Positions 28,933 through 51,031 of a stretch of 64,000 nt of DNA are shown in pieces. Both the position numbers and the translations under genes were made by a program. Position 1 is the stretch's first letter. Every line of letters starts with the position of its first letter. Source of the DNA: Candidatus Omnitrophota bacterium (GTDB lineage: Bacteria > Omnitrophota > Gorgyraeia > Gygaellales > Profunditerraquicolaceae); NCBI GenBank assembly GCA_003598025.1, contig QZKH01000002.1:138133-202132 (forward strand). The letters are read 5' to 3'. The notes under the pieces were generated by a model that worked only from the letters and a program-made list of their open reading frames with translations, was not told the DNA's origin and searched no databases.

Positions 28933-28957
28933 TTGTAAACCAAGTTTAAATAATAAG

Positions 28958-28986
28958 TTGACAATTAGGTTTCTCTAATTTATAAT
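28958..28986 (+). promoter_or_regulatory. Sigma70-type promoter of the TonB-dependent receptor gene
   Basis: TTGACA (28958..28963), 17 nt, TATAAT (28981..28986). Confidence 0.55.
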
Positions 28987-28993
28987 CGCTCTT

Positions 28994-30870: not shown

Positions 30871-30910
30871 AAATAATTGCATTTCAATCTATCGCTGATA
30901 TAATATCCCT

Positions 30911-31447
30911 ATGAAAAAGCTGCTGTTTTTTTCTATTCTTTCTTTAGCTTTTTTTGCCACCCGCGGCTTTGCAGAAGGAGGAGATATCGTGGTATTAGAA
31001 ACCAACCAAGGCAGGATTGAAATAAAACTTATGCCTGATATAGCGCCTAAGGCATGCCAGAATTTTAGAACGCTTGTTGAAGAAGGATATTATAACGGCT
31101 TAATCTTTCATCGGGTCATCAAGGGTTTTATGATACAAGGAGGAGACCCTACAGGTACAGGTATGGGAGGGGTTTCTATCTGGGGTAAGCCTTTTGCGGA
31201 TGAAGTGAGTATTAATGTTGCATTTGATAAGCCGGGGTTGGTCGCTATGGCTAATTCCGGGCCGAATACAAATATGAGCCAGTTTTTTATTACCACAGCC
31301 ATGACCCCATGGCTTAATATGCGCCATACAATATTTGGCGAGGTAATTTCAGGTTATGATGTTGTCCAGAATATTGAGAATGTAGCTACAGACGCCTCTA
31401 ATAAGCCTATCACCAGGCAAGTGATAACAAAAGCTTATTTGAAATAA
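30911..31447 (+). CDS. Cyclophilin-type peptidyl-prolyl cis-trans isomerase, secreted
   Basis: Signal peptide and FHRVIKGFMIQGGDPTGTG. Confidence 0.9.
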   Translation: MKKLLFFSILSLAFFATRGFAEGGDIVVLETNQGRIEIKLMPDIAPKACQNFRTLVEEGYYNGLIFHRVIKGFMIQGGDPTGTGMGGVSIWGKPFADEVSINVAFDKPGLVAMANSGPNTNMSQFFITTAMTPWLNMRHTIFGEVISGYDVVQNIENVATDASNKPITRQVITKAYLK

Positions 31448-31496: not shown

Positions 31497-33521
31497 ATGG
31501 CTAAAGTCATAGATTATTCCAGCGAGTTAAATAAAGCCCAATTACAGGCTGTTGAGTCTACCCGGGGGCCGTATCTGGTTATAGCCGGAGCAGGCAGCGG
31601 CAAGACAAGGGTATTGGTATATAGGGTCGCCTATCTGGTTGAAAACGGGGTAAGCCCGGAAGAGATACTCTTGCTTACTTTTACGCGCAAGGCTGCTGAG
31701 GAGATGCTCAGGCGCGCAAGTTTATTATTGGATAACCGTTGCCAGAGGGTCTCAGGCGGGACTTTTCATTCTTTCGCCAACCTGATGCTCAGGAGGTATG
31801 CCAAATTCCTGAGTATGCCGTCTAACTTTACCATATTAGACCAATCTGATGCCGAAGACGCCATCAATCTTATGCGTGCGCAGCTGGGGCTCAATAAGAC
31901 AGAAAAGCGTTTCCCGCGCAAAAAAGCCGTTCATGAAATAATTTCAAAGAGCATTAATAAGGCACAACCGATTGAAGATGTGCTATATGAAGAATACCCT
32001 CATTTTATGGAATGGACGGAGGAGATAAAAAATATCAGGGACAGCTATAATAAATATAAGGCGTCTAAATTCCTTCTGGACTATGACGATCTGCTGATAT
32101 ATTTCAGGGACCTTCTTGTTAAGAATGAAGATATCCGTGTCAAACTTTCCAAAAGATTTAAATATATTATGGTGGATGAGTACCAGGATACAAATAAGCT
32201 GCAGGCTTTTATAGCCTGTTTATTAGCAAGCGAGCACCATAATATTATGGTCGTAGGTGATGATGCGCAGAGTATTTATTCTTTTAGAGGCGCCAATTTC
32301 AGGAATATACTCGATTTCCCGAAGATCTTCAAGGAAGCCAAAATCATTACCCTTGAAGAGAATTACCGTTCGACACAGAAGATACTCAATCTTACTAATG
32401 ATGTCATACGTTATTCTAAGGAAGGGTTTGAAAAGAACCTCTACACCAAGAGAAAAGGCGGCTCAAAGCCTGTTTATATTGAGACAAGAGATGAGAACGG
32501 CCAATCAAAGTTTATCGCCGATAAGATACTTGAGCTAAGGGAAGAAGGCGTAGAGCTTAAAGATATAGCTGTATTGTTCCGTTCAGGATGGCATTCTAAC
32601 GATTTAGAGATAGAACTTTCTTCAAGGGATATACCTTTTGCTAAATACGGAGGGCAGAAGTTTGTAGAGGCAGCGCATATAAAAGATATAGTTTCGTATC
32701 TGAGGATCATGCATAATGCAAGCGATGAAATAAGCTGGCACAGAATACTCCTTTTAATGAGAGGCGTCGGCTCAAAGACAGCTACTCAGATTATTAATGA
32801 GATATTGGTGCATAAACAGTATTCCGGGATAGATTCAAAGTTTACCAGGAAAATAGAAGACCTTAGGGCGCTCTTTGAGATATTTCACGGGTTAGATGAT
32901 TGCTCTTTGACCAAACCCGCGGAGCTTATACGTATTTTTATGAAGCATTATGAGCCGCTGCTTAAGGAGAAATACGATGATTTTAATAAGAGGTTAGGCG
33001 ATTTGGATTCTTTAATAAGGATAGCTTCCAGGTATGATTCGCTTGAGAATTTCCTTGTAGACTTAGCACTCGAGCCTCCGGAGAGAAACATAATAGAAGC
33101 AGGCTTAAGAGATAAAGATGATTCCGGAGTTACTTTGTCCACGATACATTCTGCTAAAGGCCTTGAATGGCATACTGTTTTCATAATCTACGTTGCTGAA
33201 GGGCACCTGCCTTCTTATTTAAGCCTTGAAGACGAAGAAGCTATAGAGGAAGAACGAAGATTGTTTTATGTCGCATCAACCCGGGCAAAAGAGAACCTGT
33301 TTTTGTTAAAACCGCATATTGACAGAGCCCCCAGGAATTATTTTGATAATGCAGGTTCTGTGATAACCGAGGTATCCCGTTTTTTGCGGGAGGCAGATAT
33401 CATGGATAAACACCTTGATATATTAGAGATGCAGCACTATGCGGAGCATAACTACGCGACCGGCAAAAACGGAATGCTGGAGATGATGAAAGACTATTTT
33501 CGTTATATCGATGATATTTAA
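31497..33521 (+). CDS. UvrD/PcrA/Rep-family ATP-dependent DNA helicase
   Basis: Walker A AGAGSGKTRVL, DEYQDTN, and motifs through to the C-terminal VASTRAKE. Confidence 0.9.
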   Translation: MAKVIDYSSELNKAQLQAVESTRGPYLVIAGAGSGKTRVLVYRVAYLVENGVSPEEILLLTFTRKAAEEMLRRASLLLDNRCQRVSGGTFHSFANLMLRRYAKFLSMPSNFTILDQSDAEDAINLMRAQLGLNKTEKRFPRKKAVHEIISKSINKAQPIEDVLYEEYPHFMEWTEEIKNIRDSYNKYKASKFLLDYDDLLIYFRDLLVKNEDIRVKLSKRFKYIMVDEYQDTNKLQAFIACLLASEHHNIMVVGDDAQSIYSFRGANFRNILDFPKIFKEAKIITLEENYRSTQKILNLTNDVIRYSKEGFEKNLYTKRKGGSKPVYIETRDENGQSKFIADKILELREEGVELKDIAVLFRSGWHSNDLEIELSSRDIPFAKYGGQKFVEAAHIKDIVSYLRIMHNASDEISWHRILLLMRGVGSKTATQIINEILVHKQYSGIDSKFTRKIEDLRALFEIFHGLDDCSLTKPAELIRIFMKHYEPLLKEKYDDFNKRLGDLDSLIRIASRYDSLENFLVDLALEPPERNIIEAGLRDKDDSGVTLSTIHSAKGLEWHTVFIIYVAEGHLPSYLSLEDEEAIEEERRLFYVASTRAKENLFLLKPHIDRAPRNYFDNAGSVITEVSRFLREADIMDKHLDILEMQHYAEHNYATGKNGMLEMMKDYFRYIDDI

Positions 33522-33534
33522 CTTATAATATAAG

Positions 33535-34632
33535 ATGAAGAAAAGAGTAGTGGTAGCCATGAGCGGGGGGGTTGATTCTTCAGTTGCTGCTGCCCTTCTT
33601 TGCGGCAAAGGCTATGAAGTTATCGGCCTTACAATGTGTTTCAATTTATCTGAAGAGGGTAAGAGGCGCAGGATCCCATGCTGCGGTATTGAAGGCATAG
33701 AGGATGCAAGAAGGGTCGCACACAAGCTTAAGATCAGGCATTACGTTGTTAATATGCAAAAGTATTTGAAAAGATACGTTATTGATGATTTTATCCAGGA
33801 ATATTCTGCAGGCAGGACTCCTAATCCTTGCGTCAGGTGTAATCAATTCCTTAAATTTGATATATTGTTGAAGAAGGCACTTTCTTTGGATGCAGAATAT
33901 CTTGCTACCGGGCATTATGCGCGCATCGAAAAAGTCACCAGCCGTCAGCCGTCAGCCGTCAGCTTTAAGCTAAGAAAAGGCAAAGATAAGAATAAAGATC
34001 AGTCTTATTTTCTCTATCGATTGAATCAGGCGCAATTAAAACACATATTATTCCCTTTGGGGGGCTATACAAAACAGGAAGTAAGAAGCTTGGCTAGAGA
34101 TTTTGGTTTAGCTGTTGCTGATAAGGCAGGGAGCCAGGAGATATGCTTTTTACCGGATGATGATTACAGAGTTTTTATAAAGGGGAAAATTAAAGGCGAT
34201 GCCACAGGGGATATTATAGATGGCAAAGGTAACATATTGGGCAGACATAGGGGTATAGCCTATTATACTATAGGCCAAAGGCAGGGTTTAGGGATTGCTT
34301 TAGGTTACCCTGCATATATAATTGGCATCGAAGCCAAAACTAACAGGATAATAATCGGGCCAAAAGCCCAGGCTTTAAGCAAGTCTTTTATGGTGAAAGA
34401 ATGCCATTTTATAGCCGATTTCCCGGAAAAGAAGATTGCTGCAAAAGTCAAGATAAGGTATAATCACAAAGAGGCTCCTGCGGATATCTATCCTATGGGT
34501 GAAAAAATAAGAGTAGCTTTTAAAAAAGCGCAGTTTGCCGTTACTTGCGGGCAGTCGGCTGTTTTTTATGACAAGGATACTGTTTTAGGCGGCGGGATTA
34601 TAGATTGCATTCAGGAGAGAAAGGAAAAATGA
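33535..34632 (+). CDS. mnmA: tRNA-specific 2-thiouridylase
   Basis: PP-loop AMSGGVDSS and catalytic Cys residues; 365 aa. Confidence 0.9.
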   Translation: MKKRVVVAMSGGVDSSVAAALLCGKGYEVIGLTMCFNLSEEGKRRRIPCCGIEGIEDARRVAHKLKIRHYVVNMQKYLKRYVIDDFIQEYSAGRTPNPCVRCNQFLKFDILLKKALSLDAEYLATGHYARIEKVTSRQPSAVSFKLRKGKDKNKDQSYFLYRLNQAQLKHILFPLGGYTKQEVRSLARDFGLAVADKAGSQEICFLPDDDYRVFIKGKIKGDATGDIIDGKGNILGRHRGIAYYTIGQRQGLGIALGYPAYIIGIEAKTNRIIIGPKAQALSKSFMVKECHFIADFPEKKIAAKVKIRYNHKEAPADIYPMGEKIRVAFKKAQFAVTCGQSAVFYDKDTVLGGGIIDCIQERKEK

Positions 34633-41224: not shown

Positions 41225-42262
41225 GTGAAGTACGGTTCTATAAAAAAGGATGATTTAAATACCTGGATTACCCATCTTAAAAAGAAAGCTAAGTTATATG
41301 CGCCCAAGAAGAAAGAAAACCAGTTTGTTTTTAGGCCGGTTAAAGATATCAATGATATATCCCTTAAATACATCCCCACAATTTTACCTCCTAAGAAGTA
41401 CTATTTTCCTCAGAAAGAAAAATTATTTAAATTTGGAGTAAACCCTTTCAAAACATCTAAGGCAATATCTGAGTTTGAAGAGTTTATCCTCTTTGGCGTG
41501 CATACCTGTGATATCGCAGGTATCCAGTGTATGGATGTTGTCTTCAGGGAGTCTCCGGAGGATCCGAATTATCTTAATAGAAAAGATAAGATGATTATAA
41601 TAGGCATTGAATGTTTAGAATATTGCGATAAATACGCCAATTGCACATCAATGGGAACGCATGTTCCAAGAGGCGGTTATGATTTGATGATGGTTGACCT
41701 CGGTGATAATTTTATACTCCACGTCAATTCCGAGAAGGGTGAAAAGCTTGTTTCCGGGCTAGGCTATATCAAAGAAGCAGATGAGAAAGAGATGAGCCAG
41801 CTTGAGCGGGTAAGGGAAGCTAAAAAGAAAGTTTTTAAAGAAGAGTTTATCTCTTCCCTGCAGAAGGTGCATGAAGCATTCGGGAATAATTTTGCTTCAG
41901 GTGTATGGAAAGATGTAGGCAGGCGTTGTGTTGCCTGCGGTAATTGCACCGCAGTATGCCCTACCTGTTATTGTTTTGATGTCATGGATGATATGGAGCT
42001 TTCTCTTGCCAGCGGGACCCGCTATCGCGTATGGAATTCATGCCAGATGGATGATTTCGCCAAAGTAGCCGGCGGAGAAGATTTTCGCAAGGGCAGGGAT
42101 TCAAGGCAGAGGCACAGATATTACAGAAAATTTAAATATCCGGTTGATAAATTTAACCGGTATTTTTGTGTTGGATGCGGAAGGTGCACCAGGACATGCA
42201 TGGCGGATATAAACCTGGTAGAGACTGTAAATTCAATTCTAAGCGCTAAAGATATCGAATAA
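41225..42262 (+). CDS. Group-3b [NiFe]-hydrogenase beta subunit (Fe-S, sulfhydrogenase HydB-like)
   Basis: Multiple Fe-S Cys clusters (CVACGNCTAVCPTCYC, CVGCGRCTRTC). GTG start. First gene of a beta-gamma-delta-alpha set. Confidence 0.7.
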   Translation: MKYGSIKKDDLNTWITHLKKKAKLYAPKKKENQFVFRPVKDINDISLKYIPTILPPKKYYFPQKEKLFKFGVNPFKTSKAISEFEEFILFGVHTCDIAGIQCMDVVFRESPEDPNYLNRKDKMIIIGIECLEYCDKYANCTSMGTHVPRGGYDLMMVDLGDNFILHVNSEKGEKLVSGLGYIKEADEKEMSQLERVREAKKKVFKEEFISSLQKVHEAFGNNFASGVWKDVGRRCVACGNCTAVCPTCYCFDVMDDMELSLASGTRYRVWNSCQMDDFAKVAGGEDFRKGRDSRQRHRYYRKFKYPVDKFNRYFCVGCGRCTRTCMADINLVETVNSILSAKDIE

Positions 42263-42276
42263 AAGGAGCATATGCT

Positions 42277-43143
42277 ATGATTGATAAAGAAATTCTTCTG
42301 GAAAAGATGAAGACTTCTCCTTACAAGCCTATGAAGGGCCGGATTATCGAAGCAGAAATGCTTACGGATAAAGAGAAGTTCTTCCGTATTGAACTTGAAG
42401 GTAAGATTAACCTGGCACATGACCCGGGCCAATTTGTTATGGTTTCCATATTCGGGTATGGAGAGGCACCGATATCGGTATGCTCTTCTCCTACCGATAA
42501 AGGGTATTTTGACCTTACTGTCAGGAATGTAGGGGTTTTTACCGACAAACTGCATAAGCTTAATAAAGGTGACATGGTCGGCATAAGAGGCCCTTTTGGC
42601 AAAGGTTTCCCGGTAGATAACATGTTTGGATATGATTTAGTGGTTGTAGGCGGGGGTATAGGCATAGTGCCACTCAGGTCGTTAATAAGGTATATAATGC
42701 ATAATAGGAATGATTTTGGCAACGTGCAGATTTTGCTTGGATGCAAAACTCCCAAGGAAATGCTTTTTAAAGAAGAGGCCAAAGAGTGGATGAAGAGAGC
42801 AGAGATAAAATTTAATTGCACCGTTGATAAGGCTGATCCTGAATGGAAAGGCAACGTCGGTTTGATAACTACGCTGATACCGGGAGTAGATATAAATCCG
42901 TCTAAGACTTATGCTGTCGTAGTCGGTCCTCCGATTATGTACAAATTCGTAATCGTTAAGCTTTTAGAAAAAAATATACCTGATCATCAGATTGTAGTTT
43001 CTTTGGAGAGAAGGATGCGTTGCGGTTTGGGTAAATGCGGGCATTGTCAGATAGAGGGAGTTTATGTCTGCCAGTCCGGCCCGGTTTTTAATTATAATCA
43101 ATTAAGAGACTTTAAAGGAGAATGCCATGAAAAAGCAATCTAA
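42277..43143 (+). CDS. Group-3b hydrogenase gamma subunit (FAD/NAD(P)-binding, [2Fe-2S]; HydG/PyrK-like)
   Basis: Ferredoxin-NADP reductase-like fold (LVVVGGGIGIVP) and C-terminal CGLGKCGHCQ. Confidence 0.7.
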   Translation: MIDKEILLEKMKTSPYKPMKGRIIEAEMLTDKEKFFRIELEGKINLAHDPGQFVMVSIFGYGEAPISVCSSPTDKGYFDLTVRNVGVFTDKLHKLNKGDMVGIRGPFGKGFPVDNMFGYDLVVVGGGIGIVPLRSLIRYIMHNRNDFGNVQILLGCKTPKEMLFKEEAKEWMKRAEIKFNCTVDKADPEWKGNVGLITTLIPGVDINPSKTYAVVVGPPIMYKFVIVKLLEKNIPDHQIVVSLERRMRCGLGKCGHCQIEGVYVCQSGPVFNYNQLRDFKGECHEKAI

Positions 43144-43891
43144 GCCGAAAGTTGCTTTTTTTGATTTTACGGATTGTGAAGGTTGCCAGCTTCAGATAGC
43201 CAATACAGGACAAACCCTGCTGGATATCATGGAACTGGTTGATATCGTCAATTTCCGTGAAGTTATGTCTGAGGCAGGAGAGGATTATGATGTTGCTTTC
43301 GTTGAAGGCAGCATTTCTACTGACAACGACGTAAAAAGGATCAAAAAAATCAGAGAAAAAGCAAAAATCGTGGTAGCTTTTGGCGCCTGTGCTACTATCG
43401 GCGGAGTAAACGGTATCAAAAACAGATTTCCACTTGAAGTTGCCAAGGATAGGGTCTACGGAGATAAGGCTGATACTGTAAACACTATAAAAAATATGCC
43501 CTTACATGAGGTGATCAAAGTAGATTATTTTATTCACGGTTGCGTGCCGTATATACCTGAAATCGTGACTGTTTTAAAATGTATTCTTATGGGTAAACCG
43601 TATGTTTTACCCAATTATCCTGTCTGTGTGGAGTGCAAAATGAATGAAAACGTCTGCCGTTATGAAAAGGATCAGGAGTGTATGGGTCCGGTCACCAGGG
43701 CAGGGTGTAATTCATGGTGTATTAATAATGGGAACAGGTGTTATGGCTGCAGAGGGTTAGTAGACAGCCCGGCTGTTGACGCAGCAAAAGACATATTATC
43801 AAAATACGGCCTTAAGGTAGATGATATTTTGCAGAGTTTTACACTTTATAATGATTCAATGGGGGAGAAATATGACAAAGAGTTCAAATAA
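43127..43891 (+). CDS. [NiFe]-hydrogenase small (delta) subunit
   Basis: FDFTDCEGCQ proximal-cluster motif, AFGACATIGG, additional Cys ligands. Confidence 0.8.
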   Translation: MKKQSKPKVAFFDFTDCEGCQLQIANTGQTLLDIMELVDIVNFREVMSEAGEDYDVAFVEGSISTDNDVKRIKKIREKAKIVVAFGACATIGGVNGIKNRFPLEVAKDRVYGDKADTVNTIKNMPLHEVIKVDYFIHGCVPYIPEIVTVLKCILMGKPYVLPNYPVCVECKMNENVCRYEKDQECMGPVTRAGCNSWCINNGNRCYGCRGLVDSPAVDAAKDILSKYGLKVDDILQSFTLYNDSMGEKYDKEFK

Positions 43892-45224
43892 AATAGATTC
43901 CAAGAATGTAAAAGTAGATGTGCATTACCTGACAAGGGTAGAAGGGCATGGCAATATCGTAGTTGATGTAAAAGACGGTAAACTTACCAAATGCGAATTC
44001 CAGGTTATTGAATCCCCCAGGTTTTTTGAGTCCATGCTGGTCAAGAGGTCTATTTGGGAAGCACAGCATCTTACCAGCCGTATCTGCGGTATCTGCGCCT
44101 GCGGGCATAGCCTTGCAAGCGTAAAGGCAGGAGAGGACGCATTGGGCATTAAACCTTCGGAAGAAACAATCATGTTGCGCAAATTATTGCTCTATGCAGA
44201 GCAGATGGACAGCCATATCCTGCATATTTATATACTCGTCGCTCCTGACCTGCTTGGGGTTAAAAGTATAGTGCCGCTGGTTAAGACCCATCGGCCGGTT
44301 ATAGAAATGGCTTTACGTATGAAAAGGATGAGTGATTATGCCGGAGAAGTCTTAGCAGGCAGGCATATCCATCCGATAAGTTACGTTATAGGAGGCCTTA
44401 CACAACTGCCTTCCCAGGAAGGTCTTGAAAAACTATACAAAATGATGCTTGATGCGCGTAAGGATACCGAGCAGACTATAAAAATAATCAAAACCCTTAA
44501 GTTCCCTGAATTTCAGAGGCCCACGCAGTATATGTCTCTTTCTTCTAATGAAGAATATGCGATGTATGACGGTGACCTGGTAGTAAACAAAGGCTCTAAA
44601 ACAAAAGTCAGGGATTACCGGAAGTTATTCAGCGAGCAGGTGAAAGATTATTCCCGGGCCAAGGTTTCTACGATAAACGGAAAGTCTTATGCCGTAGGTG
44701 CGCTCTCCAGGTTCAATAATAATTCTGATAAGCTAAATAAAAAAGCCAAAGAAGCCGCCAGGGAGCTTGGGTTAAAAGCGCCTTGCCATAATCCTTACCT
44801 TAATACTGCAGCGCAGTTAGTAGAATGGGTGCACTGCCTGGAAGAATCCATAATAATAATGGAGAAGATATTAAAGGACGGCATAAACGAAAATAAAGTG
44901 GTTGTCCCTTCATGGCCGAAGAGGAGCGAGCTTGATAAGATAAAATACAAGCCTAATACCGGGGCTGCCTGTGTGGAAGTGCCGCGAGGGTCTTTATTCC
45001 ATGAATATACCATTGATGATACCGGACATATTACCGCGGCTAATTGCGTTATTCCGACAAATCAGAATATGGGTAATTTAGAAGATGATATGGCTAAATT
45101 AGTCCCTGAGCTTCTGGGTAAAAAAACGCAGGAAGAGATCACATTAGACCTTGAGATGCTTGCCAGGGCATATGACCCGTGTATATCCTGCGCAACACAT
45201 CTTTTAGATGTCAAATTTGTCTAA
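43872..45224 (+). CDS. [NiFe]-hydrogenase large (alpha) subunit
   Basis: N-terminal RICGICACGHS (L1) and C-terminal DPCISCATH (L2) Ni-Fe ligands. Start ATG 43872 with RBS GGGGGAG. Confidence 0.9.
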   Translation: MTKSSNKIDSKNVKVDVHYLTRVEGHGNIVVDVKDGKLTKCEFQVIESPRFFESMLVKRSIWEAQHLTSRICGICACGHSLASVKAGEDALGIKPSEETIMLRKLLLYAEQMDSHILHIYILVAPDLLGVKSIVPLVKTHRPVIEMALRMKRMSDYAGEVLAGRHIHPISYVIGGLTQLPSQEGLEKLYKMMLDARKDTEQTIKIIKTLKFPEFQRPTQYMSLSSNEEYAMYDGDLVVNKGSKTKVRDYRKLFSEQVKDYSRAKVSTINGKSYAVGALSRFNNNSDKLNKKAKEAARELGLKAPCHNPYLNTAAQLVEWVHCLEESIIIMEKILKDGINENKVVVPSWPKRSELDKIKYKPNTGAACVEVPRGSLFHEYTIDDTGHITAANCVIPTNQNMGNLEDDMAKLVPELLGKKTQEEITLDLEMLARAYDPCISCATHLLDVKFV

Positions 45225-45690
45225 AGTTTTTTCTGTAATAGGATTGGGTAATACTTTAAGGAGAGATGACGGAATCGGAATCGTGGTTCTAGAATCTCTC
45301 CTTCAGTTTTATAGAGAAGAGAATGTTGACTATCTTAATTTTGGTACGGCGAGCTTCAACCTGGTTAACAAGATAAAAGATTATAAGGCTGTTTTGCTTA
45401 TAGATGGCATTGATGCCGGCCTGCTGCCCGGAGAGTTGAAAATATTTGACCTGCAGGATATATGCTATAATACAGAAGATTGCAATTCATCTACGCACGA
45501 GCTTAATTTGACCAGTTTGTTTGAGCTCAGCAGGAAGCTGGGGTTAAAGACAAAGATCTATGTCGCAGGAATACAGGTGCAAGATACCGGCTGGGGAGAA
45601 GGCTTAAGCCCCGCGGTCAATAATAACAGGCAGGATATTATTGAAAATATAAGTTTTTTCATAAAAGAAAATTTTGTGAACCATAGTTAA
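45208..45690 (+). CDS. Hydrogenase maturation endopeptidase (HycI/HyaD family)
   Basis: VIGLGNTLRRDDGIGI N-terminal motif. Confidence 0.8.
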   Translation: MSNLSKVFSVIGLGNTLRRDDGIGIVVLESLLQFYREENVDYLNFGTASFNLVNKIKDYKAVLLIDGIDAGLLPGELKIFDLQDICYNTEDCNSSTHELNLTSLFELSRKLGLKTKIYVAGIQVQDTGWGEGLSPAVNNNRQDIIENISFFIKENFVNHS

Positions 45691-45714
45691 GGTTAAAGCA
45701 GCGCATAATATAAA

Positions 45715-46911
45715 ATGTTTTCATCGTTAAGGGTAAGAAATTTTCAATTATACTGGGTGGGCATGTTTATATCGCTTATAGGCAGCTGGATCCAGATAAC
45801 TGCGCAGAGCTGGCTTGTATTTGAATTGACTAAATCCGCGTTTCTGTTGGGCCTGGTGAGTTTCCTGAACCTTATACCGGTATTTTTCCTTTCTTTGTTC
45901 GGCGGCGTGTTGGCAGACAGAATAAATAAGCGCAACATCCTGATTATCACGCAGAATGCCTTTATGATATTAGCTTTTATATTAGGCTATATGACCCAGG
46001 CAGAGATAATCACGCCAAAACTTATAATGATAATTGCTCTGTTGAATGGTATTGTAATGGCTTTTGATGCCCCCAGCAGGCAGGCCATGGTGGTAGAGTT
46101 AGTCGGTAAAAGTCATCTTATGAATGCCGTGGCGCTCAATTCGCTTGCTTTTAATTCCAGCAGGATAATCGGGCCCGCACTGGCAGCAATCTTAGTGGCA
46201 GGCATAGGCATGTACGGGTGTTTCTATATTAATGGATTCAGTTTTATTGCTGTTATAGCAGCGCTTATGATGATAAAAAACGGCAAGCCGGATAAAATAA
46301 ATACGGGTAATTCATTGCTTAAGGATATAAAAGAGGCGCTATATTATATAAAAGACAACAGGATTATGCTGATTTTGGTGGCGATCGTAGGCGTGATCAG
46401 TTTATTCGGGGTATCTTATGTTATTCTTATGCCAGTTTTTGCGCGCAATGTTTTAGGCTCGGGTGTAAAAGAATTCGGTAAACTTATGTCTGCGATAGGA
46501 GCTGGGGCTATTTTATCTACGCTACTTTTAGCTAAACTCGGGGATTTTAAAAATAAAGGCAAATTCCTGCTGTTCTCTTTGGTTATGTTTTCAGTTTCAC
46601 TGATCTTGCTTTCGTTTACACGCCAGCATCTATTAGCTATAGCAGTGCTTGTTTTTCTGGGCTGGGGCGCGGTATCGGCTACAGCGATAATAAACACGCT
46701 GTTACAAGATATGGTTTCTGACAGATTAAGGGGCAGGGTAATGAGCATATTTATGTTTACTTTTGCGGGGATGATGCCATTTGGAAACTTAGTAACAGGG
46801 TATTTAGCTTCTGTCTGGGATGTCAGCAATGCGATTTTGTTCAGCGGTATCATTTGCCTGGTTTTTTCTGTTTATGCCGGTATTTTCTTCCCCAAGTTAA
46901 GAAGTTTGTGA
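45715..46911 (+). CDS. MFS transporter
   Basis: 12-TM topology. N-terminal FQLYWVGMFISLIGSWIQ, typical of MFS-3/EntS-like exporters. Confidence 0.7.
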   Translation: MFSSLRVRNFQLYWVGMFISLIGSWIQITAQSWLVFELTKSAFLLGLVSFLNLIPVFFLSLFGGVLADRINKRNILIITQNAFMILAFILGYMTQAEIITPKLIMIIALLNGIVMAFDAPSRQAMVVELVGKSHLMNAVALNSLAFNSSRIIGPALAAILVAGIGMYGCFYINGFSFIAVIAALMMIKNGKPDKINTGNSLLKDIKEALYYIKDNRIMLILVAIVGVISLFGVSYVILMPVFARNVLGSGVKEFGKLMSAIGAGAILSTLLLAKLGDFKNKGKFLLFSLVMFSVSLILLSFTRQHLLAIAVLVFLGWGAVSATAIINTLLQDMVSDRLRGRVMSIFMFTFAGMMPFGNLVTGYLASVWDVSNAILFSGIICLVFSVYAGIFFPKLRSL

Positions 46912-46971: not shown

Positions 46972-47433
46972 ATGAGGAATATTTTTATCTTGGTTATGGT
47001 TTTGTTTCTTATTTTGCCTTTGGCCGGCTGCGGCAAGAAGAATCCGGCTGATGAGGCGCAGGAAGCGATCAGTATTGAAGAGCTCGGAGATATAGCTATG
47101 CAGGAAAATGCAACAAAGGTCAATCCTACAGTTGCAACTGCCGAGCCGGTTAAGGAGGCAGTTCCCCTAACCAGTACCACAGCCGTTAACCCCGGAATTA
47201 CTAAATTAGAGCCATTGCCGCCACCTGGCCCATATAGGCCGTCGATTCAGCAGATACAGACAGCCTTACAGGCAGCGGGTTTCTATAAGGGTGCTATAGA
47301 TGGTAAATCCGGCCCGATGACTAAAAAAGCTATCAAGGATTTCCAGGCTGCGAATAACCTGCAGGTAGACGGAAAAGTCGGCCCAAAAACCTGGGCAGTT
47401 TTAGCCAACTATTTGAAAAGCCCTCAGAGCTGA
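46972..47433 (+). CDS. Lipoprotein with a C-terminal peptidoglycan-binding domain
   Basis: Lipobox LAGCG. PG_binding_1-like QIQTALQAAGFYKGAIDGKSGPMTKKAIKDFQAANNLQVDGKVGPKTW. Confidence 0.7.
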   Translation: MRNIFILVMVLFLILPLAGCGKKNPADEAQEAISIEELGDIAMQENATKVNPTVATAEPVKEAVPLTSTTAVNPGITKLEPLPPPGPYRPSIQQIQTALQAAGFYKGAIDGKSGPMTKKAIKDFQAANNLQVDGKVGPKTWAVLANYLKSPQS

Positions 47434-47462
47434 TTATTGCTGTTACGGCTTTGATTTTAGCC

Positions 47463-47491
47463 TTGAATTGGGCTTTTCCAGGCTGTATACT
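47463..47491 (+). promoter_or_regulatory. Sigma70-type promoter driving the structured leader RNA
   Basis: TTGAAT (47463..47468), 17 nt, TATACT (47486..47491). Confidence 0.5.
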
Positions 47492-47497
47492 TTATAT

Positions 47498-47730
47498 AGA
47501 GGTAAGCCGATAAAGGCAAACTTCCGCTTTGTAAAAGCGGGCGCAGAGTTAGCGCTTGCGCATCGAAAGATAAGGACCTCGCACTTTGTGCGAGCTCGCC
47601 AGACTTAAGGTTATAGTTGGCGAGGCAAAGCCACAGACCTAAACCCGCTTTGGAGGAAATGGGTAGGGTAGCTGGGTTGCCGAAGGACGGTAGAGCCAGA
47701 GAGTACCTCTGGCCTTTATCGGCGGTTTTT
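47498..47730 (+). ncRNA. Structured leader RNA with GEMM (c-di-GMP-I riboswitch)-like conserved segments, possibly tandem or insertion-bearing
   Basis: Closing helix CCGATAAAGG (47507..47516) pairs with CCTTTATCGG (47713..47722). Internal GGCAAAC plus a GNRA (GUAA) hairpin. GCAAAGCCACAGACCUAAACC and GGGUAGGGUAGCUGGGUUGCCGAAGG closely match the Vc2 GEMM-I segments GCAAAGCCUCCGGCCUAAACC and GGUAGGUAGCGGGGUUACCGAUGG, recalled from memory. Confidence 0.5.
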
Positions 47731-47732
47731 AT

Positions 47733-47758
47733 CCCAACATTAGTTGGGATTTTTTATT
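47733..47758 (+). terminator. Intrinsic terminator after the leader RNA
   Basis: CCCAAC-ATTA-GTTGGG hairpin followed by ATTTTTTATT. Confidence 0.65.
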
Positions 47759-47792
47759 GGGTAGTCCTGCCTATTATGTTATAATATAGCCC

Positions 47793-49013
47793 ATGATTGA
47801 ATTTCCCGGAGGTTTCTTATGGGGTGCAGCAACTTCTGCTTACCAGGTCGAAGGAAATAATATACATAGTGACTGGTGGCAATGGGAGAAATCCGGAAAA
47901 CTGAAATTCCAATCTGGCAAGGCCTGCCTTCACTATGAACTTTATAAGGAAGATTTTAATTTAGCTAAATCACTTCACCATAACGCCCACCGCATTTCAA
48001 TAGAATGGTCGCGTATAGAACCAGCAATAGGCCAGTTTAATGAAAAAGAAATCGACCATTATAAACAGGTAATCCTGGAATTAAGGCGCAATAATATAGA
48101 GCCAATAGTCACTCTGCACCATTTTACCAATCCTGCCTGGTTTACAGAATCCGGAGGCTGGCTGGATAAAAAATGCACCTCCCATTTTATAAAATATGTT
48201 GAGAAACTACTTTACGCATTTGGGGACAAAGTCAAATACTGGATTACAATAAATGAACCATTTATTTACTCTTACTATTCATATATCGAGGGAACTTGGC
48301 CGCCGCAGGTAAAGTCGTTTAGCAAGGCAAAAAAGGTACTTAATAATCTGGCTTTAACCCATATAAAGACCTATAGGCTTATCCACGAGTATTATAAAGC
48401 AAACCGCCTTGGTTTGCCTCTGGTCAGCATAGCAAAGAATATGCAGGCATTTATGCCTTGTATCCCAAGCCTGAAAAATATATTAGCCGCCTATTTGAGA
48501 GATAGGATTTATAATCACAATATGCTTGCCTATTTTTGCCGGAAAAGAACCCTTGATTTTATAGGCGTAAATTATTACTCCAGGAGTCTGGTTGAGGTAG
48601 GCGGCTTGAGTTTGAAAAACATACTTCTGGATACCTGCCAGAATAGCCATAGTAAACTTTTGAAAAATTCCCTGGGCTGGGACATATACCCTGAGGGGCT
48701 CTTCAAAATTCTCTGCGGTCTGAAATGTTTCGGGTTACCGGTATTAATTACCGAAAACGGGATCTGCACAGAAGACGATAACCTGAGGTGGAGCTTTATC
48801 CACGACCACTTGTATAATATCAATCTGGCCGTTAGACAGGGTGTCAAAGTCATGGGTTATATTTACTGGTCGCTAATTGACAATTTTGAATGGGATAAGG
48901 GCTTTGGCCCGAGATTTGGGCTTGTAGAGGTAGATTATGCTACATTAAAGCGTAAAGTCAGAGAAAGCGCTTATAAGTATTCACAGGTGTGCAAAACCAA
49001 CAAGCTTGATTGA
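47793..49013 (+). CDS. Glycoside hydrolase family 1 (beta-glucosidase/beta-galactosidase-like)
   Basis: GH1 N-terminal FLWGAATSAYQVEG, acid/base TINEP, nucleophile ITENG. Confidence 0.9.
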   Translation: MIEFPGGFLWGAATSAYQVEGNNIHSDWWQWEKSGKLKFQSGKACLHYELYKEDFNLAKSLHHNAHRISIEWSRIEPAIGQFNEKEIDHYKQVILELRRNNIEPIVTLHHFTNPAWFTESGGWLDKKCTSHFIKYVEKLLYAFGDKVKYWITINEPFIYSYYSYIEGTWPPQVKSFSKAKKVLNNLALTHIKTYRLIHEYYKANRLGLPLVSIAKNMQAFMPCIPSLKNILAAYLRDRIYNHNMLAYFCRKRTLDFIGVNYYSRSLVEVGGLSLKNILLDTCQNSHSKLLKNSLGWDIYPEGLFKILCGLKCFGLPVLITENGICTEDDNLRWSFIHDHLYNINLAVRQGVKVMGYIYWSLIDNFEWDKGFGPRFGLVEVDYATLKRKVRESAYKYSQVCKTNKLD

Positions 49014-51031
49014 TGGAGATTGAAGACAGAAACTTAATATTTGAAGATATACCTTTATTTTCCGGATTAAATAAGGAAGAGCTGGAATTTGTCAAGGAGC
49101 ACTCCAGTTTCCTTGAGCTAACAAAAGGCCAGATAGTATATGAAGAAAATTCTCCTGCCGACGCTTTTTATTGTGTTGTCTTTGGCAGGGTGGTCATTTA
49201 TACTTTGGATAATGATAAAAATAGGACCGTGCTTGAATATCTTCACAGAGGAAAATATTTCGGCATCATATCTCTCTTGACAGGTGATAACCATTCTGTT
49301 ACAGCGCAGGCGCTTAATGATTGCCTGCTTTTAATGATAAAAAAGGATGACTTCGACCTCATTCTTAAAAATATCCCGCGCCTGGCTATAGATTTAAGCC
49401 TTTCTTTGTCGCGTAGGCTCAAAGATAAGGACTTGCATCAGAAGATTATATTTGAAACGACTGTTATATCGGTTTTTAGCTCGCATTCCCTTGCCGGCAA
49501 AACCGTATATTCGCTTAATCTGGCACTCAGCCTCAGTAAAGAAACAAAAAAGAAGGTAATGATCCTTGAGGTCTTTCCTGAAGACGGGATTCACAGCCTG
49601 CCGAATAAGTTTGAAATAACATCTGGCTATAAGCCATTTAATACAAGCAAGCTGATGTTGACCGATTCAAGCCAAATCGGGGGATATATACTGAAAAACA
49701 GATTTGGCATAGACCTGATGTGCGTTTATTATAAGCCGGAGGATAAGTATTTTCTGAAGCAGTTCGTTAAGATAATAAGCTTTCTGGTGAATGATTATAA
49801 TTATATTATAGTGGATCTGCCTACGGACATGGATATAGCTGTTTTTAATATACTTAACCAGTCCGACCTTATCCATATTCTGACCTGCGGGCAAGAGGTT
49901 GATTTAGAAAAGACACGCCATCTTATTGATAGGCTGAAGTCCGAATTCCATTTTCTTGAGAACAAGATAAAGATCATCATCAATGAATATAAGTCCAGCA
50001 AGCTGAGTTATGAACAGCAGAAAGAATTCATAGGCGGGGATATATTTGCGACCCTGCCTAAAATGGAGTTTGGCTCTACCGAGAGAATGATACTGGATAA
50101 TCCGTTTTCAGAATATTCAAAAGCAGTAAGGCGTATTTCGCGTAATCTCGGTGATTGCCAGGTTGGTTTGGCGCTGGGGGTAGGTTTTGCTTATGGCTTC
50201 TGCCATATAGGCGTATTAAAAGTAATAGAAGAAGAGGGTATCCCTATTGACGTCATTTCAGGCTCGAGCATCGGCGCCCTCATAGCCGCGTTATGGGCAA
50301 CGGGAAGGAGCGCCGAGGAGATAGCCGAGATTATTGCCAGAGAGTTTAAGGAACCGAAGTTTATATGGCAGATTATAGACTTGACATTCCCAAGGCTCGG
50401 GTTTATAAAAGGGAATAAACTTTACAGGTTTTTCAAAAAATACCTTGGTAACAAGACTTTTCATGATATAAGGCTGCCTTTGTGTATTATCGCCAGCGAC
50501 GTCAAGCGCAAAGAATCCAGGGTAATAAACAGCGGGTTGCTTATAGACGCAGTTATGGCTAGCTGTTCCATGCCGGGAGTTTTCACGCCATTCAGGCTCA
50601 AAGAGGAGCTATTGCTTGACGGTGGGGTGATAAACCCGTTACCAACAGAGATACTGTTTAAAATGGGCATGCGCAAGATTATCGCAGTAAATGTCACTCC
50701 TTCCAAGGAAGACGTCATAAAGCAATATAACAGCGTAAAGAACAATTTTGACGGTATGGCAGTAAAAAGTATCAAGAAAGCAGGTTTTAGTATAAGGAAT
50801 TATTTAAAAGAGAAATTCAAGAATAACATACTGGACCTTATTTTCAGCAGTATAGAGATGATGCAGTCCGAAATGGCAGGTAAGGAAGCCCAGCTCGCAG
50901 ATATCGTGCTTCATCCGGATACCAAGGGCCTTTATTGGCTGGAACTGCATAAGGTTGAAGATTTTGCAAAGAGGGGAGAACAGGAAGCCAGGGCAAATCT
51001 TGAAAAAATAAAACAGCTAGTAAATGAATAG
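49010..51031 (+). CDS. cNMP-binding domain / degenerate P-loop-like middle domain / patatin-like phospholipase (NTE-like) protein
   Basis: N-terminal CAP-family cNMP-binding domain (FGIISLLTGDNHSVTAQAL). C-terminal patatin domain with GxSxG (GSSIGA) and a DGG catalytic Asp (LLLDGGVINP). Confidence 0.7.
   Translation: MMEIEDRNLIFEDIPLFSGLNKEELEFVKEHSSFLELTKGQIVYEENSPADAFYCVVFGRVVIYTLDNDKNRTVLEYLHRGKYFGIISLLTGDNHSVTAQALNDCLLLMIKKDDFDLILKNIPRLAIDLSLSLSRRLKDKDLHQKIIFETTVISVFSSHSLAGKTVYSLNLALSLSKETKKKVMILEVFPEDGIHSLPNKFEITSGYKPFNTSKLMLTDSSQIGGYILKNRFGIDLMCVYYKPEDKYFLKQFVKIISFLVNDYNYIIVDLPTDMDIAVFNILNQSDLIHILTCGQEVDLEKTRHLIDRLKSEFHFLENKIKIIINEYKSSKLSYEQQKEFIGGDIFATLPKMEFGSTERMILDNPFSEYSKAVRRISRNLGDCQVGLALGVGFAYGFCHIGVLKVIEEEGIPIDVISGSSIGALIAALWATGRSAEEIAEIIAREFKEPKFIWQIIDLTFPRLGFIKGNKLYRFFKKYLGNKTFHDIRLPLCIIASDVKRKESRVINSGLLIDAVMASCSMPGVFTPFRLKEELLLDGGVINPLPTEILFKMGMRKIIAVNVTPSKEDVIKQYNSVKNNFDGMAVKSIKKAGFSIRNYLKEKFKNNILDLIFSSIEMMQSEMAGKEAQLADIVLHPDTKGLYWLELHKVEDFAKRGEQEARANLEKIKQLVNE

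What the first reader, a model, noticed from the sequence alone, without database searches (positions are those of the whole stretch)
47463..47758. Promoter- and terminator-bounded 230-nt structured RNA with GEMM/c-di-GMP-I riboswitch-like blocks upstream of GH1 and a cNMP-patatin gene
A sigma70 promoter (TTGAAT-17-TATACT) is followed by an RNA closed by a 10-bp helix (CCGATAAAGG/CCTTTATCGG) and then an intrinsic terminator. Inside are GGCAAAC plus a GNRA-loop hairpin, GCAAAGCCACAGACCUAAACC, and GGGUAGGGUAGCUGGGUUGCCGAAGG. These closely parallel the conserved 5' and 3' blocks of the Vibrio Vc2 c-di-GMP-I aptamer as I recall it, but with about 85 nt of extra hairpins between the first hairpin and the GCAAAGCC block, so it may be tandem or insertion-bearing. 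Downstream are a GH1 glycosidase and a cyclic-nucleotide-binding patatin-like phospholipase. A YajQ-family c-di-GMP-binding protein is encoded 8 kb away.
Basis: partly seen in the sequence, partly recalled or inferred. Interest (0 to 1): 0.65.

Follow-up and report, generated by a model that had tools for sequence, protein, structure and literature searches.

The report
Expanded c-di-GMP riboswitch in Omnitrophota
This is a real c-di-GMP-sensing riboswitch of a known class carrying about 100 nt of extra hairpins, but it sits behind a terminator and a separate promoter that GH1 has in all relatives, so what it controls is still open.

Summary
Window 47505-47684 (+) matches Rfam RF01051 (c-di-GMP-I) at 43.5 bits, above the gathering score of 35, with a 103-nt insertion where the model expects an 18-nt hairpin. 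The genome is an Omnitrophota. About 30 relatives carry the same element at the same site, between a PG-binding gene and GH1. Relatives with the usual spacing score 77-82 bits. The core pairs are 98% paired, and 20 of 31 pairs show compensatory changes.

The insert is not a second aptamer. It consists of two lineage-specific add-ons: the P2 hairpin rebuilt as a four-way junction, and two further hairpins between C44 and G45.

There it ends the upstream gene and abuts a conserved TGnTATAAT box 7-12 nt before the GH1 ATG, which suggests a leaderless mRNA.

The riboswitch's own output element is more likely an invariant 11-nt sequence (47713-47723) followed by a U-run. It can pair with either strand of the ligand pocket. 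I infer that c-di-GMP blocks this first terminator (an ON switch). Whether read-through reaches GH1 is unresolved. The class is known; the architecture and context are unusual.

The parts
47463..47491 (+). Riboswitch promoter: -35 TTGAAT (47463-68), 17-nt spacer, -10 TATACT (47486-91)
   Evidence: Consensus scan. CTTGAAAA-17-TATACT is conserved in nearly all of 27 relatives, ending 6-8 nt before GCCG (14 nt in the window).
47505..47684 (+). c-di-GMP-I aptamer. In Vc2 numbering: G14=47509, G20=47515, G21=47516, C22=47517, G45=47625, C46=47626, A47=47627, G83=47671, C92=47680, C93=47681
   Evidence: RF01051 at 43.5 bits vs gathering score 35, model positions 1-87. Own model R1 gives 85.6 bits. 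Core pairs 98% paired, 20 of 31 with compensatory change.
47506..47516 (+). 5' block GCCGAUAAAGG. It carries pocket residues G14 and G20 and is the 5' strand of the 11-bp long-range helix
   Evidence: Invariant in relatives. Duplex with the switch sequence is -17.4 kcal/mol.
47521..47577 (+). Module A, an expanded P2: base CUU/AAG (47521-23 with 47572-74), hairpin A1 47524-40, A2 47541-61, A3 47562-71 with GAAA tetraloop 47565-68, then GAC ending at the C44 equivalent, 47577
   Evidence: RNAalifold on 7 loci predicts a four-way junction; 10 of 20 pairs have compensatory changes. The window is the most divergent row of that alignment.
47578..47624 (+). Module B: two adjacent hairpins (B1 47578-94, B2 47595-47624) inserted between C44 and G45
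   Evidence: The same site holds two abutting hairpins of largely unrelated sequence in 5 loci, z = -2.3 to -4.6; sequences.
47629..47678 (+). P3 helix with tetraloop-receptor bulge (CCUAAAC ... GUAGG) and a variable tip
   Evidence: Rfam alignment. Helices 4 and 5 are 98-100% paired, and 10 of their 14 pairs show compensatory change.
47679..47686 (+). 3' block GCCGAAGG (G91 to G98, including C92, C93 and G94). It is also the base of the local T1 hairpin
   Evidence: Rfam alignment. The local minimum-energy fold pairs GCCG with CGGU.
47688..47730 (+). T1: 14-bp hairpin 47688-701 with 47707-721, containing the invariant switch sequence CCUUUAUCGGC (47713-23), followed by U-run 47726-30
   Evidence: Folds. 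The switch is followed by a clear U-run in about 15 of 27 relatives and a weak one in 5 more.
47731..47756 (+).
   Evidence: -11.2 kcal/mol. Present upstream of GH1 in loci with and without the riboswitch; the arms covary and the loop ranges from 4 nt to more than 100 nt. Occurs once in the 64-kb window.
47757..47785 (+). GH1's own promoter: -35-like TTGGGT 47757-62, 17-nt spacer whose last three bases are TGT (47777-79), TATAAT 47780-85; ATG 7 nt further on
   Evidence: TGnTATAAT lies 7-12 nt before the GH1 ATG in most of 78 loci. The same TATAAT-6/7-ATG layout without a Shine-Dalgarno sequence occurs at four other window genes.
47793..49013 (+). GH1 glycosidase, 406 aa, with catalytic motifs TINEP and ITENG
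   Evidence: Pfam PF00232, E = 5e-85; motifs found; 80 Omnitrophota homologues.
49010..51031 (+). cNMP-binding, P-loop (ParA/MinD-like), patatin protein; its start overlaps the GH1 stop
   Evidence: Pfam. Conserved directly after GH1 in the syntenic clade; in L191 it follows the riboswitch directly.

Best explanation
The element is a genuine class I (GEMM-I) c-di-GMP riboswitch of an Omnitrophota bacterium, transcribed from its own promoter. In most relatives the RNA probably begins at or next to the first conserved base.

Shown:
- The ligand-pocket residues (G14, G20, A47, C92) and the pairs G21-C46 and C22-G45 are intact.
- Two structured add-ons have been grafted onto the first hairpin domain. 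P2 is rebuilt as a four-way junction whose third arm carries the GAAA tetraloop. Two further hairpins sit between C44 and G45.
- Downstream lies an invariant 11-nt switch sequence, CCUUUAUCGGC, followed by a U-run. It is complementary both to the 5' pocket strand (G11-G21) and, with the 5' strand of the adjoining hairpin, to the 3' pocket strand (G91-G94, up to A95 in most relatives).

Inferred:
- Without ligand, the switch pairs with one of these strands and forms a stem abutting the U-run, so transcription stops at about 47730 (T1).
- With c-di-GMP bound, both strands are held in the pocket. The base of that stem cannot form and the polymerase reads on, making this an ON switch.
- Read-through then meets a second, unregulated terminator (T2). 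T2 overlaps GH1's own promoter, which probably produces a leaderless mRNA. The riboswitch can therefore only add to or modulate expression of the GH1/cNMP-patatin operon; it cannot be the operon's sole control.
For: - Class identity: RF01051 at 43.5 bits (gathering score 35) in the window. Relatives with canonical spacing score 77-82 bits. On 37 sequences, 98% of cells are paired, 20 of 31 pairs show compensatory change, and 0 of 500 shuffles reach this.
- The distal GGCAAAC block belongs to the aptamer: U22-A45 covariation in L031 and L070.
- G at position 20 in all members.
- Add-ons: four-way junction with 10 of 20 compensatory pairs. Two-hairpin insert at one site in 5 loci.
- Conserved promoter.
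- Switch sequence: invariant, and followed by a U-run in about 15 of 27 relatives, plus 5 weak cases.
- In 22 of 27 members the local minimum-energy hairpin (-9 to -28 kcal/mol) pairs UCGGC with G91-A95. The duplex with the 5' block is about -17.5 kcal/mol.
- With the canonical core forced in the window, the 4 bp abutting the U-run are lost.
- T2 plus the TGnTATAAT box occurs in riboswitch-free loci, and other genes in the window have the leaderless layout.
- G14 stacks under the C92-ligand pair in Vc2 (PMC11705072).
Against: - No ligand binding or transcription assay has been done.
- In the window, a 14-bp hairpin ending 4 nt before the U-run survives the ligand-bound constraint, so the predicted effect of ligand is modest.
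- The long-range helix also abuts the U-run, so a ligand-bound form that keeps its lower 6-9 bp could itself terminate, giving the opposite sign.
- Seven of 27 relatives have no U-run after the switch.
- I found no pairing by which the aptamer could suppress T2.
- GH1 has no Shine-Dalgarno sequence, so read-through transcripts may be poorly translated.
- The canonical P1a has only 2 Watson-Crick pairs here.
- The riboswitch was lost repeatedly while T2 and the GH1 promoter stayed.
Confidence: 0.55

Rival explanations
1. The element is an autonomous c-di-GMP-binding small RNA. It is always released at T1 or T2 as a roughly 230-260-nt RNA and does not feed into GH1. Its paired 5' and 3' ends and U-tail make it stable. 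Ligand binding would expose the invariant 11-nt switch or 5' block for pairing in trans, change which 3' end is made, or buffer c-di-GMP.
For: It has its own near-consensus promoter, with the RNA predicted to start at the 5' block in most relatives. Two terminators lie in series before GH1's separate promoter. The 11-nt sequences are invariant in the manner of a seed. The riboswitch is dispensable: it has been lost repeatedly while T2, the promoter and GH1 remain.
Against: No target was found. Matches to the 11-mer elsewhere in the window lie inside coding regions. The element always sits at one genomic site, immediately 5' of the same operon, and still does so when GH1 is missing (L191). The invariance is also explained by pairing to pocket residues.
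Confidence: 0.25
2. It is an OFF switch. c-di-GMP stabilises the long-range helix between the 5' block and the switch, acting as an extended P1 with the intervening hairpin as a fourth arm. That helix together with the U-run terminates transcription. Without ligand, the switch is held in a hairpin that ends short of the U-run.
For: Ligand-stabilised P1 is the usual logic in Vc2 (PMC11705072). The 5' block:switch helix is the most stable pairing and appears in the whole-RNA minimum-energy fold. An unrelated metagenomic c-di-GMP-I element (L178) has a 9-bp 5'/3' helix directly followed by U7.
Against: The full 11-bp helix buries G20 and G21, which must be free or paired to C46 for binding. The local hairpin also reaches the U-run in most members, so no clearly non-terminating apo state exists. 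A four-way junction at C92/C93 has no precedent that I know of.
Confidence: 0.12
3. The riboswitch controls promoter occlusion. It sets how many polymerases from the strong upstream promoter reach T2. The T2 release site lies inside GH1's core promoter, so the riboswitch would tune GH1 negatively without producing a joint transcript.
For: The T2 U-run (47751-56) lies immediately upstream of the -35-like box and within about 25 nt of the -10 box. In most loci the 3' arm of T2, TTGGGA, sits 17-18 nt from TATAAT.
Against: This is purely geometric inference. The same T2/promoter overlap exists where only the upstream protein gene feeds into it. In some loci T2 and the -10 box are more than 100 nt apart (L164).
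Confidence: 0.06
4. The window's copy is a decayed relic whose aptamer was broken by insertions.
For: The Rfam score is only 43.5, against 77-82 bits for canonical relatives. P2 base and arm A3 are only 3 bp each, and the window is the most divergent row in the module A alignment.
Against: Every pocket residue, the receptor, the switch and the promoter are intact. The inserts are well-folded hairpins (z = -4.1). They recur at the same two sites in other species with compensatory changes.
Confidence: 0.02

Closest known systems
c-di-GMP-I (GEMM-I) riboswitch, Rfam RF01051; type example Vibrio cholerae Vc2
   Same: The hit is above the gathering score. It has the same pocket residues (G20, A47, C92, G14-C93), the same G21-C46 and C22-G45 pairs, the same P3 helix with tetraloop receptor, and a GAAA tetraloop on the first hairpin domain.
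   Different: The 6-bp P2 hairpin is replaced by a four-way junction. Two extra hairpins sit between C44 and G45, about 100 nt more in total. P1a has only two Watson-Crick pairs. An invariant 11-nt downstream sequence is complementary to both pocket strands. A terminator and a separate promoter lie between it and the nearest gene.
pbuE (ydhL) adenine riboswitch, a transcriptional ON switch (own knowledge)
   Same: The proposed logic is the same: the 5' half of the terminator stem is made of the aptamer's 3' residues, so ligand binding and terminator formation exclude each other.
   Different: The aptamer class is different. Here the terminator's 3' strand can also pair with the aptamer's 5' strand, and a second unregulated terminator follows.
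Riboswitch-containing non-coding RNAs: Listeria SreA/SreB (SAM) and Enterococcus/Listeria EutX/Rli55 (B12) (own knowledge)
   Same: A riboswitch with its own promoter whose terminated or extended product is a discrete RNA rather than simply an mRNA leader. This is the model for the main rival explanation.
   Different: No trans target or protein partner is known here, and no c-di-GMP example of this kind is known to me.
GEMM-Ib 3',3'-cGAMP riboswitch and Rfam RF03167 c-di-GMP-I-GGC (same clan, CL00126)
   Same: Same fold. Two relatives (L020, L070) score best against RF03167.
   Different: cGAMP selectivity goes with A at position 20 (own knowledge). Every member here has G20, and the window's best match is RF01051.

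Membership tests
c-di-GMP-I riboswitch (RF01051) | Covariance-model score at or above Rfam's gathering score | tested here: met
   43.5 bits vs 35, full model 1-87. 41.0 bits in a sub-search that used an alternative alignment. Relatives score 40-82 bits.
c-di-GMP-I riboswitch (RF01051) | Ligand-contacting residues G20, A47 and C92 in register (structures of Vc2; G20 and C92 also in PMC11705072) | tested here: met
   G47515, A47627 and C47680 align to these positions. They do not vary in the family alignments.
c-di-GMP-I riboswitch (RF01051) | G21-C46 and C22-G45 pairs joining the 5' block to the GCAAAGCC block | tested here: met
   Pair columns 17-143 are GC in 35 of 35. Columns 18-142 are CG 19, UG 15, UA 1. 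UA is also seen in L070. The pairs span the 103-nt insert in the window.
c-di-GMP-I riboswitch (RF01051) | P3 helix with internal tetraloop receptor, supported by covariation | tested here: met
   Helices 4 and 5 are 98-100% paired, and 10 of 14 pairs show compensatory change. The CCUAAAC/GUAGG bulge is present. Caveat: the alignment was fitted to the model.
c-di-GMP-I riboswitch (RF01051) | First hairpin (P2/P1b) of fixed length capped by a GNRA tetraloop that docks into P3 | tested here: inconclusive
   A GAAA loop exists (47565-68), but on the third arm of a four-way junction. The hairpin directly after GGCAAAC has a GUA/UGUAA loop. Whether the geometry still allows docking cannot be judged from sequence.
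c-di-GMP-I riboswitch (RF01051) | Closing helix P1a formed next to C92 (G14-C93 and onward) | tested here: inconclusive
   G47509-C47681 and C47508-G47682 can pair, but the next positions are C/A and G/A. A long-range 11-bp alternative exists.
c-di-GMP-I riboswitch (RF01051) | Binds c-di-GMP | not testable with these tools
   Needs in-line probing, ITC or a gel shift.
c-di-GMP-I riboswitch (RF01051) | Acts in cis on the downstream gene through an expression platform | tested here: inconclusive
   A plausible regulated terminator (T1) exists. However, an unregulated terminator and a separate conserved promoter lie before GH1.
3',3'-cGAMP riboswitch (GEMM-Ib) | A at position 20 (own knowledge) | tested here: not met
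   G at 47515 and in all relatives (AAAGGYAAAC).
c-di-GMP-II riboswitch (RF01786) | Covariance-model match | tested here: not met
   No hit at the gathering score or at E <= 10 over 47300-47900.
Tandem riboswitch | Two complete aptamers in series | tested here: not met
   There is one hit and one set of core blocks. The insert contains only hairpins, and relatives have a single 6-bp hairpin in its place.

The most novel reading that the evidence does not exclude
The riboswitch is not an mRNA leader but a free-standing c-di-GMP-gated RNA. It is made from its own promoter and released at one of two terminators directly in front of a leaderless gene's promoter. Ligand binding would free an invariant 11-nt sequence, or shift the 3' end from T1 to T2, and so act in trans, as a c-di-GMP buffer, or by occluding the GH1 promoter. 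The grafted hairpin modules could be docking sites for a partner.
Probability: 0.25. Interest if true: 0.75.

Novelty: new variant of a known kind. Interest (0 to 1): 0.42.

Why it matters
As far as my literature searches reached, c-di-GMP riboswitches have not been described in Omnitrophota, a phylum of very small cells.

If the add-ons are functional, the c-di-GMP-I junction tolerates a roughly 50-nt two-hairpin domain between C44 and G45, and tolerates replacement of P2 by a four-way junction. This bears on aptamer engineering and on database models. Rfam scores the window only just above threshold and misses two relatives that carry the two-hairpin insert.

The context is the more interesting part. 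A riboswitch with its own promoter, two terminators in series, and then a conserved promoter with a leaderless layout is not the textbook leader arrangement. It could be a natural case of a riboswitch-bearing small RNA or of riboswitch-tuned promoter interference.

It also links c-di-GMP to an operon encoding a GH1 glycosidase and a cyclic-nucleotide-binding patatin lipase, a pairing of unknown function that is conserved across the phylum.

Tried and rejected
- **Tandem or second aptamer in the insert.** Rejected. There is one Rfam hit, nothing else at E <= 10, and the insert contains only hairpins.
- **Rfam's alternative alignment (47609-47684, no P2).** Rejected in favour of the long one. 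The distal 5' block is invariant in relatives and covaries with G45.
- **T2 palindrome as a transcription-factor operator.** Rejected. The distance between the arms varies from 4 nt to more than 100 nt, with nested hairpins, and the arms covary (AAC/GTT, GGC/GCT, AAT/ATT, CGC/GCG). This fits an RNA hairpin, not a fixed-spacing DNA site.
- **T2 as a generic genome repeat.** Rejected. It occurs once in 64 kb.
- **An antiterminator linking the aptamer to T2.** Inspecting the sequences by eye, I found at most 4-5 bp, and these are not conserved.
- **Trans targets of the 11-mer.** The window has 36 matches with up to 2 mismatches, against 21 expected. The best ones lie inside coding sequence. No support.
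- **An 11-nt tetraloop-receptor motif in the loop of hairpin B2 (CUUAAG/UAUAG).** Rejected. It would leave a 2-nt loop.
- **Exact-protein look-up of GH1.** It found nothing.
- **Literature searches** for Omnitrophota c-di-GMP riboswitches, leaderless contexts, or c-di-GMP riboswitch small RNAs returned nothing relevant.

Full report
**Observation**

- TTGAAT-17-TATACT at 47463-91.
- A long-range helix, actually 11 bp: GCCGAUAAAGG 47506-16 with CCUUUAUCGGC 47713-23.
- The three GEMM-like sequence blocks.
- A hairpin plus T-run at 47731-56.

The 271-nt stretch folds much better than shuffled versions (z = -5.2). A single promoter-like or terminator-like match in 1.2 kb is no more than chance in the scan itself. 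Their significance comes from conservation, described below.

**Identity**

A scan of the whole window against Rfam gives RF01051 (c-di-GMP-I) at 47505-47684: 43.5 bits against a gathering score of 35, covering the full model. It places 103 nt where the model has an 18-nt hairpin. c-di-GMP-II does not match. A sub-search gave an alternative alignment (47609-47684, 41 bits) that drops the first hairpin. Comparative data decide for the long alignment.

**Relatives**

The downstream GH1 protein has 55-63% identical homologues in 80 Omnitrophota genomes. About 17 of these loci carry a homologous RNA at the same place. A metagenome scan with the 5' block added 13 more, plus 3 from unrelated organisms.

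Many relatives have the ordinary layout: a 6-bp hairpin with a GAAA loop, and 31 nt from GAUAAAGG to GCAAAGCC. These score 77-82 bits against RF01051.

I built a model from six canonical members and aligned 37 sequences. The core structure is 98% paired, 20 of 31 pairs have changes on both sides, and no shuffle or slid register comes near. The alignment is fitted to the model, which favours it, but the margin is large.

C22-G45 becomes U-A in L031 and L070. This ties the distant 5' block to the GCAAAGCC block. Position 20 is always G, which points to c-di-GMP rather than cGAMP (own knowledge of GEMM-Ib).

**What the insert is**

Comparison shows two separate add-ons.

*Module A* (window 47521-77) is also in L010, L013, L016, L031, L129 and L132. 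It turns P2 into a four-way junction: a short base helix, two new hairpins, and a third short hairpin carrying GAAA (window 47565-68). RNAalifold recovers this, with compensatory changes in 10 of 20 pairs. The window is the most divergent member.

*Module B* (window 47578-47624) is also in L027, L031, L120 and L198. It is a pair of abutting hairpins inserted between the C44 equivalent (47577) and G45 (47625). The five versions are largely unrelated in sequence, but all fold into two hairpins (z = -2.3 to -4.6).

Other relatives instead carry 50-130-nt expansions of the P3 tip. The window is therefore an insertion-bearing single aptamer, not a tandem.

Rfam only just detects such forms. The window scores 43.5 bits, L027 41 and L031 40. 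L120 and L198 get no hit at the gathering score.

**The 'terminator' and GH1's own promoter**

The hairpin at 47731-50 (T2) was the surprise. The 70 nt upstream of GH1 in nearly all 78 loci, with or without the riboswitch, read aTCCCrrC-loop-GyTGGGAT, then a T-run, then TGnTATAAT, then 7-12 nt, then ATG.

In riboswitch-free loci this hairpin follows the stop codon of the upstream PG-binding gene by 50-70 nt. Its arms covary, and its loop ranges from 4 nt to more than 100 nt. That fits an RNA hairpin rather than a protein-binding palindrome. It occurs once in the window. T2 is therefore the resident terminator for whatever is transcribed upstream. In most loci its 3' arm lies 17-18 nt from a conserved extended -10 box.

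In the window, TGT-TATAAT is at 47777-85 and the ATG at 47793, with no Shine-Dalgarno sequence. Four other window genes (28994, 30911, 33535, 45715) show the same TATAAT-6/7-ATG layout, while most genes have GGAGG. I infer that GH1 is made as a leaderless mRNA from its own promoter.

The gene order MFS, PG-binding, [riboswitch], GH1, cNMP-patatin, orf152, YjeF_N is the same with or without the riboswitch. On a rough GH1 neighbour-joining tree the riboswitch is patchy. L004 retains the riboswitch promoter's -35 box fused to T2. Together these suggest an old element lost several times.

**The riboswitch's own output element**

The switch sequence CCUUUAUCGGC is essentially invariant. It is followed within 0-3 nt by a run of U in about 15 of 27 relatives, and by a weaker run in 5 more. 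It has two possible partners:
- The 5' block (G11-G21 in Vc2 numbering, including G14 and G20), giving 11 bp at about -17.5 kcal/mol.
- The 3' block G91-A95 (including C92, C93 and G94), together with the 5' strand of the intervening hairpin, which imitates the 5' block (for example GCCGAAGAUAAAGG in L020).

In 22 of 27 members the local minimum-energy hairpin pairs UCGGC with G91-A95. In the window this local hairpin is -21.8 kcal/mol and runs up to the U-run.

In Vc2, G14 stacks under the C92-ligand pair and G20 contacts the other guanine (PMC11705072). Both partners of the switch are therefore pocket strands. Ligand binding and a stem that abuts the U-run should exclude each other.

Forcing the canonical core in the window removes the 4 bp next to the U-run but leaves a 14-bp hairpin ending 4 nt short of it.

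My reading is an ON switch at T1. The steps 'ligand blocks T1' and 'T1 terminates' are inference.

The invariance of the switch is best explained by its pairing to the 5' block, which is itself fixed by ligand binding, because the local partner varies between species.

**What remains open**

After T1 comes T2, and I found no way for the aptamer to suppress it. GH1 also has its own promoter and no Shine-Dalgarno sequence. Three outcomes are possible:
- (a) T2 is leaky, and the riboswitch adds c-di-GMP-dependent transcripts to the operon.
- (b) The RNA is an autonomous c-di-GMP-binding small RNA with two alternative 3' ends.
- (c) It tunes occupancy of GH1's promoter.

I favour (a) weakly. The element is always at this one site. 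In L191, where GH1 is missing, the riboswitch, T2 and the promoter directly precede the cNMP-patatin gene. General synteny conservation weakens that argument.

**Comparison and verdict**

This is a member of the c-di-GMP-I class. The score, pocket residues, bridging pairs and P3 all pass. The tetraloop-bearing hairpin and P1a are modified. Ligand binding is untested.

It differs from described examples in two ways. It has two structured add-ons at the junction. It also sits in a promoter, aptamer, terminator, terminator/promoter, leaderless-gene arrangement.

I rate it a new variant of a known kind. Interest is moderate, and higher if the autonomous-RNA or interference reading proves true.

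Noticed in passing
window 47731-47792; L001-L080, the 70 nt before each GH1 start: A hairpin (UCCCRRC...GYYGGGA), T-run, TGnTATAAT and ATG module is conserved upstream of GH1 across most of about 78 Omnitrophota species, whether or not the riboswitch is present.
   Followed up: yes
window 28950-28996, 30880-30913, 33500-33537, 45690-45717: Other genes have TATAAT 6-7 nt before the ATG and no Shine-Dalgarno sequence (for example TTGACA-17-TATAAT-7-ATG at 28994). This genome seems to mix leaderless and Shine-Dalgarno-led genes.
   Followed up: partly
L101 ~2545-2640; L129, L191, L199, L001, L054, L132 (just after the GH1-promoter -10 box): An inverted-repeat element (GCACATAACTTATGG...CGACATAAGTTATCTGTGC and variants) is inserted right after the -10 box in several species. 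It turns the leaderless gene into one with a structured leader. It could be a small mobile element or a regulatory hairpin.
   Followed up: no
L016 2711-2845: This relative has two successive 5' halves (GGTAAAC plus a GAAA hairpin, then GGGGTAAAC plus module A). It looks like a partial internal duplication of the aptamer.
   Followed up: no
L004 ~405-470: The riboswitch promoter's -35 region (CCTTGAAAAATAGG) is joined almost directly to the T2 hairpin. This looks like a deletion scar where the riboswitch was lost.
   Followed up: partly
L191 337-1000: The riboswitch, T2 and the TGnTATAAT box directly precede the cNMP-binding patatin gene. GH1 is absent from this locus.
   Followed up: partly
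window 49010-51031: A three-part protein (cyclic-nucleotide-binding domain, ParA/MinD-like P-loop, patatin lipase) starts on the GH1 stop codon. It is conserved next to GH1 across the phylum. Its function is unknown.
   Followed up: partly
L020 2795-2892, L070 2801-2890; L120, L198: Two relatives score best against the Rfam variant model RF03167 (c-di-GMP-I-GGC). Two relatives carrying the two-hairpin insert get no Rfam hit at the gathering score.
   Followed up: no
L197 9521-9641, 10562-10683, 11606-11714; L093: A high-GC contig from an unrelated organism carries three c-di-GMP-I-like elements about 1 kb apart, each upstream of a similar small secreted-looking protein.
   Followed up: no
window 41225-45690: A [NiFe]-hydrogenase large subunit, its maturation protease, and Fe-S/FAD oxidoreductase genes lie just upstream. 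An MFS transporter and a PG-binding protein sit between them and the riboswitch.
   Followed up: no
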